A stretch of DNA of 64,000 bases from Promethearchaeota archaeon (GCA_016839555.1 JAEOUA010000003.1:64001-128000); one strand, 5' to 3'. Positions 56,416 to 57,451 are shown, counted from the stretch's first letter. Made by a program: numbers and translations. The notes: generated by a model from the letters alone, not told the origin.

Positions 56416-56661
56416 ATTAATAAAACTTTTAATCATTTTTTTTAATCTTTAAAAATCTTAAGAGTAAAGCAGCCTTAGAAAAGAAAAAATAAGTTTTTGA
56501 ATCATTAATCCCTAAGATTCGACTTATTTATTCCTTTTAAATTTAACGCATAAACTTTAATTATAAGGGGTTCTTTATTCTATCCAAATTTAAACCATCA
56601 AGTTTTAAGTTATCAATTTCTTAGAAATTGAGATTACTTAAAAATCAACTATGGTTTTTTT

Positions 56662-56843
56662 TTTGGCCACATAAAATGCAGCTCTTCGCTGCAGCGCCGA
56701 AAGTTAAACTTTGTTGCGTTAGCGATAGTACTTCTGTTGAAATCAGCGGGAAACGCTAAACTGTAAGTTCGCTTACGGTCATAGTAACAAGGGATAGTAC
56801 CCGGTCCCATACCGAACCCGGAAACGCTTTTTATGTGGCTAAA
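56662..56843 (+). repeat. Inverted repeat enclosing the permuted 5S gene (15-bp stem plus BHB-like motif)
   Basis: TTTGGCCACATAAAA (56662-56676) pairs with TTTTATGTGGCTAAA (56829-56843) with one G-U; inner GCG/CGC and CCGA/CCGG helices with 3-nt bulges. Confidence 0.9.
56703..56823 (+). rRNA. rrf: 5S rRNA gene, circularly permuted (3' half 56703-56767, UUCG linker 56768-56771, 5' half 56772-56823)
   Basis: Loop C CCCATACCGAAC; helix I CTTACGG/CTGTAAG; helix II GTAACAAGG/CTTTGTTGC; helix III CCGGT/ACCCGG; TTAGCG/CGCTAA with loop E AGTA/GAAA; halves occur in reversed order. Confidence 0.92.
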
Positions 56844-56938
56844 TAATTTTTATAATGCTTCTTCTATCTATAGTATCCTTTTGCCATAATTTTTTAAACA
56901 ATTAATAATATCTTAAATATAATATATTATTTTATCGC

Positions 56939-57451
56939 TTGAATAATAATATGGTAAAGAAATACGTCATTTTTCTCAAAAGAATTTGGAGATCATGGTT
57001 TATAATCTTAGTAATAATTATTATTATCCTTGCGTTTTATAATTTAATTGCAGCCATAATTTTAACGGGTATAACACTTCTTTTATTTGTATTTTCTTAT
57101 ATTCCGTCCTTCTTCTTTAAAAATAGAGTAGTGCGCTTTCTAAAAAATTATTATAGGATTAAAGATGATGATATCATTAAGCATTTTAGCAATAAAAAAG
57201 ATAAAATAAAAAAGGTTCTATTTGATTTAGCACAGGATCAAGCAAAAAAAGATTGGCTCATCGTGTTTGTAAATAATCATTACATCTATTTTCATAAAGA
57301 TATAATTGAGAAATATAAAAATCTCTATCAAAAAGGTTACGGCGAAAAAAAGATTTTTGATCTATTACAAAAGATTGATATTGAGACGAGAGCAGAAATT
57401 AAAGCAATAAATACTACTTTAAAGGCACATAATAGACTTTCAGAAGAATAA
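56939..57451 (+). CDS. Hypothetical membrane protein (2 TM plus soluble C-terminal domain)
   Basis: Hydrophobic aa ~20-60 followed by a charged domain. Confidence 0.65.
   Translation: MNNNMVKKYVIFLKRIWRSWFIILVIIIIILAFYNLIAAIILTGITLLLFVFSYIPSFFFKNRVVRFLKNYYRIKDDDIIKHFSNKKDKIKKVLFDLAQDQAKKDWLIVFVNNHYIYFHKDIIEKYKNLYQKGYGEKKIFDLLQKIDIETRAEIKAINTTLKAHNRLSEE

What the first reader, a model, noticed from the sequence alone, without database searches (positions are those of the whole stretch)
56662..56843. Bulge-helix-bulge-like processing stem whose predicted cuts exactly rebuild the conserved 5S loop B
Seen: a 15-bp outer stem (56662-56676/56829-56843) and GCG/CGC (56694-96/56825-27) bring the permuted ends together. 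Next come a 4-position helix CCGA/CCGG (56697-700/56818-21, one A-C mismatch) and 3-nt bulges 3' of it on each strand (AAG 56701-03; AAA 56822-24). Established: archaeal splicing endonuclease EndA cuts after the second bulge nucleotide and RtcB ligates the products; pre-16S/23S rRNAs and introns are circularised this way. Applying that rule cuts at 56702/56703 and 56823/56824, and ligation gives ...AACCCGGAA|GUUAAAC..., the canonical 5S sequence with no nucleotide gained or lost. Inference: the 5S rRNA is excised like an intron and circularised. The leader CCG competes with the 5' strand of helix III for 56819-21, implying a precursor-to-mature conformational switch.
Basis: partly seen in the sequence, partly recalled or inferred. 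Interest (0 to 1): 0.9.

Follow-up and report, generated by a model that had tools for sequence, protein, structure and literature searches.

The report
Splice-signal stem around scrambled 5S gene
This Loki-type Asgard archaeon encodes its only 5S ribosomal RNA back half first, between flanks that fold into the cut signal of the tRNA-splicing enzyme, so a normal 5S sequence can arise only by cutting at two exact points and rejoining, most likely into a 121-base ring, though no RNA data were available to show the joining.

Summary
A 15-bp leader/trailer stem, GCG/CGC (h), CCGA/CCGG (H, one A·C mismatch) and AAG/AAA flank a circularly permuted 5S gene (56703-56823). It is the only 5S-like locus in this 3.7-Mb genome.

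- **Motif type:** there is no inner helix h', so this is the relaxed hBH (bulge-helix-loop) form, not a strict BHB.
- **Conservation:** in 65 distinct loci of the same family, 453 of 455 h/H cells pair, with compensatory changes such as CUGG/CCAG.
- **Internal control:** relatives open the circle at a second point, in loop C. The cut-after-second-bulge-nucleotide rule again gives a collinear 120-121-nt 5S. Each type carries, contiguous in its DNA, the junction predicted for the other.
- **Introns:** about 30-nt introns that obey the same rule interrupt the gene in relatives.
- **Enzymes:** the genome encodes a catalytic EndA subunit, a His-less EndA subunit and RtcB.
- **Distribution:** loci of the same kind occur in 15 genomes inspected from 13 other Asgard families. 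The sister family, which probably holds the cultured Lokiarchaea, has canonical 5S genes without the motif.

Cleavage at these sites is strongly supported. Ligation and circularity remain inferred, because no RNA runs were listed. I found no paper on this in the library searched. This scan has noted the same phenomenon in at least 99 other genomes.

The parts
56637..56645 (+). Candidate TATA box (CTTAAAAAT), about 25 nt upstream of the conserved core of the outer stem
   Evidence: Read from the sequence. ACTTAAA(A/C)A is conserved at the same distance in loci of the same genus. Its promoter function is an inference.
56662..56676 (+). 5' strand of the outer leader/trailer stem
   Evidence: A homologous stem is present in 65 of 65 relatives, with variants such as GCCACAU/AUGUGGC, ACCAUAU/AUAUGGU and ACCGCAU/AUGCGGU.
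56678..56692 (+). Leader hairpin (GCAGC-UCUUC-GCUGC) between the outer stem and h; third arm of a three-way junction
   Evidence: It forms in the constrained folds (the unconstrained MFE pairs this stretch differently). Relatives carry a hairpin at the same place with changed stems (GUAGC/GCUAC, AUAGC/GCUAU, AGGC/GCCU).
56694..56696 (+). h, 5' strand (GCG)
   Evidence: It pairs with 56825-27. This helix is 100% paired in A2. Compensatory variants in relatives include ACG/CGU, CGU/ACG, CAU/GUG, ACA/UGU and AUG/CAU.
56697..56700 (+). H, leader strand (CCGA). It mimics the 5' strand of 5S helix III
   Evidence: Three Watson-Crick pairs plus A·C with 56818-21. Relatives have CCGG/CCGG, CUGG/CCAG or CUGG/CCGG, and none has a C·A combination.
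56701..56703 (+). 5' cut region AAG, with the predicted cut at 56702/56703. It lies in a multiloop, not a closed bulge
   Evidence: Pattern A-N-G in 39 of 39 type-A loci. The retained G is the conserved G of GUUAAAC and the discarded second position varies.
56703..56823 (+). Circularly permuted 5S rRNA, 121 nt. Loop B 3' side, helix II 3' strand and helices IV/V come first. Then helix I (56761-67/56772-78) closed by UUCG (56768-71). Then helix II 5' strand, helix III and loop C
   Evidence: Rfam gives two adjacent sub-threshold full-model hits of 17.2 and 27.2 bits. The rotated sequence is collinear with canonical 5S. Helices I and II covary.
56818..56821 (+). H' (CCGG), which is the 3' strand of 5S helix III
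   Evidence: It covaries with both the leader H and the 5' strand of helix III.
56822..56824 (+). 3' bulge AAA, with the predicted cut at 56823/56824
   Evidence: A true 3-nt bulge between H and h. It reads AA+N in 39 of 39 type-A loci, and the discarded third nucleotide varies (A 27, G 7, U 4, C 1).
56825..56827 (+). h, 3' strand (CGC)
56829..56843 (+). 3' strand of the outer leader/trailer stem
56847..56851 (+). T5 run, a candidate archaeal terminator just after the trailer
   Evidence: Read from the sequence. T-runs follow the trailer in most relatives. Its function is an inference.

Best explanation
The locus is a single-gene transcription unit that makes a precursor of about 185 nt. In this precursor the leader and trailer pair through a 15-bp outer stem and the 3-bp helix h. 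Four leader bases (CCGA) occupy the 3' strand of 5S helix III, forming helix H. This creates a relaxed bulge-helix-bulge motif of the hBH/BHL type.

The two-subunit splicing endonuclease EndA cuts after the second nucleotide 3' of H on each strand, at 56702/3 and 56823/4. That releases a 121-nt RNA with a 5'-OH and a 2',3'-cyclic phosphate. RtcB joins these ends and restores loop B (...CCCGGAA-GUUAAAC...). Once the leader is gone, helix III can form. Because the native 5S termini are already sealed by a UUCG tetraloop on helix I, the product is a covalently closed 121-nt 5S rRNA.

Shown here: the anatomy; its conservation and covariation; that the cut rule gives a full-length 5S in two junction types in this family and in other registers elsewhere in the phylum; and the presence of the enzymes.

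Inferred: cleavage by EndA, ligation by RtcB, and that the ring, rather than a re-opened form, is what the ribosome uses.
For: **Identity of the gene**
- This is the only 5S-like locus in the genome, seen as two adjacent half-matching Rfam hits.

**Conservation of the motif**
- In 65 distinct loci of the same family, h and H are paired in 453 of 455 cells.
- Compensatory changes include H2 C-G to U-A in 8 loci (7 type A, 1 type B). The h helix shows several fully changed pair sets.
- The tool count on A2 gives h 100% and H 98.5% paired. The whole test structure (h, H, helices I and II) is 93% paired, against 29-44% when slid, and 0 of 500 shuffles reach the covariation score.

**The cut rule gives a full-length 5S**
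- The rule gives products of 120-123 nt in all 40 insert-free loci.
- Type A opens the circle in loop B and type B in loop C. After processing in silico, the two are collinear.
- Each type carries, contiguous in its DNA, the junction predicted for the other.
- The predicted junction also equals the contiguous sequence in canonical 5S genes of other archaea.

**Other Asgard families**
- At least 10 of the 15 loci inspected in 13 other families show the same design, in three junction registers (GGA|AGUU, GGAA|GUU, GGUAA|UU).
- Their h helices are 7-14 bp long and unrelated in sequence.

**Introns and controls**
- About 30-nt inserts in relatives obey the same rule in 20 of 24 cases. Only 1-4% of candidate splice pairs are rule-compliant.
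- tRNA introns of this genome show the same h3-H4-bulge3 geometry. An example is tRNA-Trp at 37/38.
- Negative control: 11 canonical 5S genes of the sister family have a TATA box and a T-run directly at the gene ends, and no convincing motif.

**Enzymes**
- One EndA paralog has the Tyr/His/Lys triad and best matches the Aeropyrum pernix alpha subunit (3P1Z_B, E = 5e-40). A Lys aligns with the Lys at chain position 44 of that subunit.
- The second paralog lacks the catalytic His.
- RtcB is present.
- Only (alpha-beta)2 and epsilon2 EndAs cut relaxed motifs efficiently (PMC6379350, PMC5829648).

**Precedent**
- The permuted SRP RNA of Thermoproteus is cut by EndA and is circular (PMC4731332).
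Against: - There is no RNA-level evidence. No junction reads, RNA ends or proof of circularity were available.
- In this window H has only three Watson-Crick pairs plus A·C. Only one other of the 65 loci shares this.
- There is no h', so the 5' cut lies in a multiloop. The unconstrained MFE does not form H. The BHB conformer is 3 kcal/mol above the MFE (-63.9 against -66.9).
- An exact complement of nucleotides is also what a nicked, unligated two-end molecule would need. The comparative data therefore fix the cut sites better than they prove the joining.
- Brown-algal mitochondrial 5S rRNAs function as linear permuted molecules (PMC4267664).
- A later check recorded in this scan priced the reading 'cut, joined, and the ring is the ribosomal 5S' at only 35/100 for another genome.
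Confidence: 0.6

Rival explanations
1. EndA cuts at the predicted sites but the ends are not joined. The ribosome then uses a linear, permuted 121-nt 5S. Its helix I is closed by the tetraloop and it has a nick in loop B.
For: All comparative evidence for the cut sites fits this reading equally well. Linear permuted 5S rRNAs with a closed helix-I hairpin exist in brown-algal mitochondria and are supported by RNA-Seq there (PMC4267664).
Against: - EndA products are the natural RtcB substrates, and RtcB is encoded.
- Known BHB-excised archaeal RNAs (introns, pre-16S/23S, permuted SRP RNA) are ligated (PMC4731332, PMC12918454).
- In type-B relatives the nick would lie inside loop C, the most conserved 5S loop.
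- Introns in loop C and in the helix IV/V hairpin of relatives must be spliced and ligated for the 5S to be continuous there.
Confidence: 0.2
2. The ring is only an intermediate. It is re-opened in or near the helix-I loop to recreate conventional 5' and 3' ends, as happens with permuted tRNAs.
For: Permuted tRNA precursors are circularised and then opened by RNase P and tRNase Z (PMC3978253). Circular pre-16S rRNA is re-linearised in several archaea (PMC12918454).
Against: - The linker is only a 4-nt stable tetraloop (UUCG, UACG, UUAG, UUUG...) on a covarying 7-bp helix. It has no spacer and no conserved processing signal.
- In one relative (G010, L017) the loop carries a 31-nt insert. A rule-compliant splice of it would leave a clean UUGA tetraloop, although that splice scored below the best similarity-based removal.
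- The circular SRP RNA and the circular 23S rRNA are final products (PMC4731332, PMC12918454).
Confidence: 0.1
3. The leader/trailer stem is an ordinary processing stem trimmed by other nucleases. The resemblance to a BHB motif is incidental.
For: Leader-trailer helices flank rRNAs in many prokaryotes (PMC11404451, listed). In this window H has a mismatch and there is no h'.
Against: This reading would not explain several observations:
- the fixed 4+3 geometry;
- the compensatory change in H;
- the constant 120-123-nt product at several different junctions;
- the rule-compliant introns;
- the absence of the motif from canonical 5S genes of the sister family.
Confidence: 0.06
4. The locus is a pseudogene or an assembly artefact, and the real 5S gene is missing from the 92%-complete assembly.
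For: The assembly is 92% complete, so a second gene cannot be excluded.
Against: - The same arrangement is found, one match per genome, in 68 of 134 genomes of the family by a strict pattern.
- It also appears in the other genera of the family inspected by eye.
- Its helices covary.
- None of 131 family genomes has a credible canonical 5S. The two over-threshold hits look bacterial to me.
Confidence: 0.02

Closest known systems
Permuted, circular SRP RNA of Thermoproteus tenax (Plagens et al. 2015, eLife, PMC4731332)
   Same: An essential structured ncRNA gene is encoded in permuted order. The new termini lie beside a functionally important loop. [quoted passage not shown] The ligated circle is the functional product.
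   Different: The RNA here is 5S rRNA, a ribosome component. The trait spans many Asgard families rather than a few species. The junction has moved between loops within one family. Circularity is not yet shown here.
Circularly permuted tRNA genes (Cyanidioschyzon merolae; Thermofilum pendens; review PMC3978253)
   Same: The 3' half lies upstream of the 5' half, and a BHB or relaxed BHB forms at the new termini. EndA cuts and ligation gives a circular form. Such genes coexist with many intron-containing genes.
   Different: In tRNAs the circle is an intermediate that is opened at an intervening sequence by RNase P and tRNase Z. Here the native ends are joined by a bare tetraloop with no visible opening signal.
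BHB processing stems of archaeal pre-16S/23S rRNA and circular 23S rRNA (PMC12918454, PMC7758197)
   Same: A leader/trailer stem carries a BHB, EndA cuts it and RtcB circularises the rRNA. In many archaea the circular 23S stays in the ribosome.
   Different: Those genes are collinear with the mature RNA, so circularisation is not needed to restore the sequence order. The literature states explicitly that this pathway applies to 16S and 23S 'but not 5S rRNAs' (PMC12918454).
Permuted mitochondrial 5S rRNA of brown algae (Valach et al. 2014, PMC4267664)
   Same: It is a 5S rRNA whose helix I is closed by a hairpin and whose ends lie elsewhere. This shows that ribosomes tolerate a closed helix I.
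   Different: It is organellar, remains permuted and linear in the final product, and has no BHB motif or splicing endonuclease. Its ends lie at the three-way junction rather than in loop B.

Membership tests
Strict archaeal BHB motif (hBHBh') | Inner helix h' that closes the 5' bulge | tested here: not met
   U56704 onward does not pair with C56817 and the bases before it. The same holds in the type-A relatives. The locus is therefore not a strict BHB.
Relaxed BHB motif (hBH / bulge-helix-loop; PMC6379350) | Outer helix h next to one intact 3-nt bulge | tested here: met
   GCG/CGC together with the AAA bulge at 56822-24. h is 100% paired with compensatory changes. In other Asgard families h is 7-14 bp long.
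Relaxed BHB motif (hBH / bulge-helix-loop; PMC6379350) | Central helix H of 4 bp | tested here: inconclusive
   In the window there are three Watson-Crick pairs plus A56700·C56818. In 63 of 65 homologous loci H is 4/4, including the CUGG/CCAG compensation.
Relaxed BHB motif (hBH / bulge-helix-loop; PMC6379350) | Cuts after the second nucleotide 3' of H on each strand give the functional product | tested here: met
   The products are 120-123 nt and collinear with canonical 5S, in two junction types in this family and in other registers in the phylum. The rule was calibrated on tRNA introns of this genome. Actual cleavage was not tested.
5S rRNA (Rfam RF00001) | Score at or above the gathering threshold (38 bits) | tested here: not met
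   The genomic order scores 27.2 and 17.2 bits, as two adjacent full-model alignments. The rotated sequence could not be given to cmscan.
5S rRNA (Rfam RF00001) | Conserved loops and helices I, II and III with covariation | tested here: met
   After rotation the sequence is collinear with canonical 5S of the sister family. Helix I is 100% paired, helix II has 7 of 8 pairs with changes on both sides, and helix III is 97% paired.
Permuted ncRNA genes matured by EndA plus ligase (tRNA, SRP RNA) | 3' part encoded upstream of the 5' part, with the native ends joined by a short linker | tested here: met
   Helix I (56761-67/56772-78) is closed by UUCG at 56768-71.
Permuted ncRNA genes matured by EndA plus ligase (tRNA, SRP RNA) | Ligated or circular RNA detected | not testable with these tools
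   No RNA run was listed. The metagenome scan returned only genomic canonical 5S genes.
(alpha-beta)2 EndA with broad substrate range | Two paralogous subunits, one catalytic (Tyr/His/Lys) and one structural | tested here: met
   The 198-aa paralog has Y, H and K. The 208-aa paralog has Thr in place of the His. Both carry PF02778 and PF01974. Assembly into a heterotetramer was not tested.
(alpha-beta)2 EndA with broad substrate range | Specific loop with a conserved Lys in the catalytic subunit (CSL) | tested here: inconclusive
   In the alignment to A. pernix 3P1Z_B, GAPLGISKPK aligns with GQPLDVEKPR, Lys on Lys. That this is the functional CSL lysine (Lys44) is from my memory of Hirata et al. 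2011. PMC6379350 confirms only that a conserved Lys in the CSL is required.

The most novel reading that the evidence does not exclude
In this Loki-type family, and in many of the Asgard lineages sampled, the 5S rRNA inside the ribosome is a covalently closed ring made by the tRNA-splicing machinery. The 5S gene has become a playground for BHB-dependent rearrangement. The opening point of the circle has moved between loop B and loop C within single genera while the processing scaffold stayed the same. In addition, 30-nt introns have entered loop C, the helix IV/V hairpin and the helix-I loop. The family that probably contains the cultured Lokiarchaea would then be an exception that kept, or regained, a conventional gene.
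Probability: 0.45. Interest if true: 0.9.

Novelty: new variant of a known kind. Interest (0 to 1): 0.85.

Why it matters
5S rRNA is treated as the one rRNA whose gene is always collinear and easy to find. Current reviews state that archaeal circularisation applies to 16S and 23S but not to 5S. If this reading is true, several things follow.

- A universal ribosomal RNA depends on the tRNA-splicing endonuclease and RtcB across much of the archaeal phylum closest to eukaryotes.
- It explains why standard annotation reports no 5S gene in most Asgard genomes. That missing gene counts against them in genome-quality standards.
- It gives a natural series of junction types and introns for studying how relaxed BHB motifs are recognised.
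- It raises a testable question about how a closed 5S ring enters the 5S RNP and the large subunit.

Tried and rejected
- **RNA runs:** no RNA holder was listed for window:56640-56870, so read laying could not be used.
- **Metagenome scan:** I scanned for a contig carrying both junctions contiguously, which would have hinted at assembled circular RNA. It returned 42 loci, all ordinary GC-rich canonical 5S genes of other archaea or bacteria on long contigs.
- **Rfam at gathering threshold:** it finds nothing at the locus.
- **MAFFT alignment with long flanks (A1):** it misaligned the trailers of two rows. I replaced it with anchor-based parsing and a trimmed alignment, A2.
- **Canonical hits within the family:** two over-threshold 5S hits (G069, G091) look bacterial and lie on other contigs. 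I took them as contamination and did not examine them further.
- **Thermodynamic folding:** it does not decide between conformers. The MFE is -66.9, the BHB conformer -63.9 and the conformer with helix III enforced -61.8 kcal/mol.
- **Strict BHB reading:** rejected, because h' is absent.
- **Pseudogene or artefact reading:** rejected on conservation.
- **Literature:** searches for permuted or circular archaeal 5S found no report. Subscription journals are not covered.

Full report
**1. What is there**

- The outer stem is 15 bp (56662-76 with 56829-43, one G·U).
- GCG (56694-96) pairs with CGC (56825-27).
- CCGA (56697-700) faces CCGG (56818-21), with A56700·C56818 unpaired.
- AAG (56701-03) and AAA (56822-24) follow these strands.

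Between them lies a 5S rRNA gene in permuted order. Rfam aligns its whole 5S model twice, side by side, at 17.2 and 27.2 bits. Each alignment matches well over only one half. The native 5S ends are joined: helix I (CUGUAAG 56761-67 with CUUACGG 56772-78) is capped by UUCG.

Nothing else in the 3.74-Mb, 12-contig, 92%-complete genome resembles a 5S gene. The precursor folds far better than shuffled sequence (z = -5.1).

- There is no inner helix h', so only the 3' AAA is a true bulge. The motif is the relaxed hBH (bulge-helix-loop) form.
- A conserved 5-bp leader hairpin (56678-92) sits between the outer stem and h.

**2. Who carries it**

A pattern for a helix I closed by a tetraloop and followed by the 5' half of 5S was scanned over one genome for each of 185,579 species. 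It hit 68 loci, and every named record is an Asgard archaeon (Promethearchaeota/Promethearchaeia; the unnamed ones are 'uncultured archaeon' MAGs). Within the class, all 68 matching relatives lie in the window's own family, with one match per genome. Genera that the strict pattern missed carry the same design with other helix-I loops.

Canonical 5S above the Rfam cut-off appears in 12 of 14 genomes of the sister family. That family holds closed genomes of about 4.4 and 6.0 Mb. My guess is that these are the cultured Lokiarchaea; this was not tested. In the window's family only 2 of 131 genomes have such a hit. Both hits look bacterial to me and are probably contamination.

Beyond the family, permuted 5S genes were seen in all 15 genomes I inspected, from 13 other families of the phylum. 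One of them is a closed 1.4-Mb genome. Other families have canonical genes.

**3. Is the motif more than chance?**

I parsed 83 loci by anchors, which gave 65 distinct ones.
- Of 455 cells in h (3 pairs) and H (4 pairs), 453 form pairs.
- The two exceptions are the A·C at H4, in this window and in one other locus.
- The second pair of H is C-G, U-A or U·G, and never C·A.
- The seven type-A U-A cases coincide with CCUGG/CCCAG in helix III. The leader, the 5' strand of helix III and its 3' strand therefore change together.
- h shows full replacements: ACG/CGU, CGU/ACG, CAU/GUG, ACA/UGU and AUG/CAU.
- The discarded bulge positions vary and the retained ones are fixed.
- The outer stem is found in 65 of 65 loci (median -21.7 kcal/mol, z = -4.5).

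On a trimmed 17-row alignment the counting tool gives h 100% and H 98.5% paired. The whole test structure (h, H, helices I and II) is 93% paired, against 29-44% when the partners are slid. None of 500 shuffles reaches the covariation score.

**4. The cut rule**

Cutting after the second nucleotide 3' of H gives 120-123 nt in all 40 insert-free loci.

The family has two junction types with homologous leaders and trailers.
- Type A (this window) opens the circle in loop B: GCG-CYGG-AA|G...CCYRG-AA|N-CGC.
- Type B opens it in loop C: GCG-CUGG-AA|C-CAUCCGAAC...ACCCGG-UC|A-CGC.

After processing in silico, the two types are collinear and nearly identical. Each carries, contiguous in its DNA, the junction predicted for the other. 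This is an internal control that needs no RNA.

Two genera contain both types: G019 against G043 and others, and G022 against G011. The junction has therefore moved more than once.

In other Asgard families an unbiased scan for the rule recovers sites with h of 7-14 bp exactly at the 5S junction, in three registers (GGA|AGUU, GGAA|GUU, GGUAA|UU). Such long h helices are rare in random windows of this genome: 11% have h of 7 bp or more.

Eleven canonical genes of the sister family have a TATA box about 25 nt upstream and a T-run at the gene end. None has a convincing motif.

The 14-mer junction is absent from this genome. It is the normal contiguous sequence in canonical 5S genes elsewhere.

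**5. Supporting context**

- Relatives carry inserts of about 30 nt in loop C, in the helix IV/V hairpin and in the helix-I loop. In 20 of 24 single-insert loci, a rule-compliant splice equals or nearly equals the best removal judged by similarity. Only 1-4% of candidate splice pairs comply. Some are textbook hBHBh' introns, for example UCAG-UUGC-GA|G-UUACAAC...GUUGUGA-GCGA-AA|U-CUG.
- In this genome aragorn finds only 28 tRNAs, 17 of them with introns. Several of those introns show the same geometry, for example tRNA-Trp AGC-CUCC-AG|A...GGAG-UG|A-GCU at 37/38. This calibrates the rule in the same organism.

**6. Enzymes**

The genome encodes two EndA paralogs, each with both Pfam domains.
- The 198-aa protein keeps Tyr, His and Lys. 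It best matches the catalytic alpha subunit of the Aeropyrum pernix heterotetramer (3P1Z_B, E = 5e-40), with Lys aligned on the Lys at chain position 44. I recall that residue as the CSL lysine; this is from memory.
- The 208-aa protein has Thr in place of the catalytic His.
- RtcB is present.

According to PMC6379350 and PMC5829648, only (alpha-beta)2 and epsilon2 EndAs cut relaxed motifs efficiently. A conserved Lys in the specific loop is required.

**7. Mechanism and its weak points**

The best reading has four steps.
- The precursor forms the outer stem, h and H, with H taking the place of helix III.
- EndA cuts at 56702/3 and 56823/4.
- RtcB ligates the ends.
- Helix III forms, and a closed 121-nt 5S results.

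The cut sites are strongly supported by comparison. Joining and circularity rest on the chemistry of EndA products and on precedent, above all the permuted SRP RNA of Thermoproteus (PMC4731332) and the circular 23S rRNA (PMC12918454).

Points against:
- There are no RNA data.
- H is imperfect in this particular window.
- The 5' cut lies in a multiloop.
- The BHB conformer is 3 kcal/mol above the MFE.
- Linear permuted 5S molecules exist in brown-algal mitochondria (PMC4267664).

**8. Novelty**

Six literature searches found no report of a permuted or circular archaeal 5S. A 2026 paper states that circularisation concerns 16S and 23S 'but not 5S rRNAs'.

The mechanism is of a known kind (permuted tRNA and SRP RNA), applied here to a new and universal RNA. 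It adds junction shifts and introns, so I class it as a new variant of a known kind.

This scan has already noted the same phenomenon in at least 99 other genomes, from Heimdall, Odin, Hel, Njord and Loki groups. I could not test that claim.

Noticed in passing
L007, L011, L015, L046, L070, L083, L092, L094 (loop C); L027, L033, L038, L060, L071 (helix IV/V hairpin); L017 (helix-I loop): Inserts of about 30 nt interrupt the permuted 5S genes of relatives at three sites. Most obey the BHB cut rule and some are full hBHBh' motifs, so they look like spliced introns in a 5S rRNA gene. I found no published report of 5S introns.
   Followed up: partly
L016 (G019) and L019 (G022) against L154-L161 (G043, G011 and others): Two genera each contain both junction types, with the circle opened in loop B or in loop C. 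The leaders and trailers are homologous, so the opening point has moved more than once while the processing scaffold was kept.
   Followed up: partly
own genome, all contigs (outside the window): aragorn finds only 28 tRNA genes in a 92%-complete genome, and 17 of them have introns. This suggests many disrupted tRNA genes that standard tools miss, which fits a broad-specificity EndA.
   Followed up: partly
window 56607-56639: A palindrome (AAGTTATCAATTTC..GAAATTGAGATTACTT) lies directly upstream of, and overlaps, the candidate TATA box. It is conserved in loci of the same genus and in two loci of a neighbouring genus. It may be a regulator site.
   Followed up: no
L187 (G171), L181 (G163), L174 (G031), L173 (G026), L168 (G154): In some other Asgard families the best rule-compliant product is 150-166 nt. 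In G171 the leader carries two CGUG-AGA copies, which looks like a nested BHB or a 30-nt intron right at the junction. In G026 the junction seems to lie near loop A and helix II.
   Followed up: partly
L066: The loop-C insert contains a partial duplicate of the 5S itself (GGGATAATACCCGGTCCC). This hints that duplication seeds new BHB sites.
   Followed up: no
L096-L106 (sister family): Canonical 5S genes occur in two or three copies, tandem in two closed genomes. Each has its own TATA box about 25 nt upstream and a T-run at the 3' end, and none has a leader/trailer stem.
   Followed up: partly
window 56941 onward: An ORF starts at 56941-56943, about 100 nt downstream of the trailer stem (ATGGTAAAGAAATACG...). 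A similar downstream ORF start (ATGCC.AAAAA..., ...TTGGAAGAAAATGGTT) recurs after the 5S locus in several relatives, so the gene order seems conserved.
   Followed up: no
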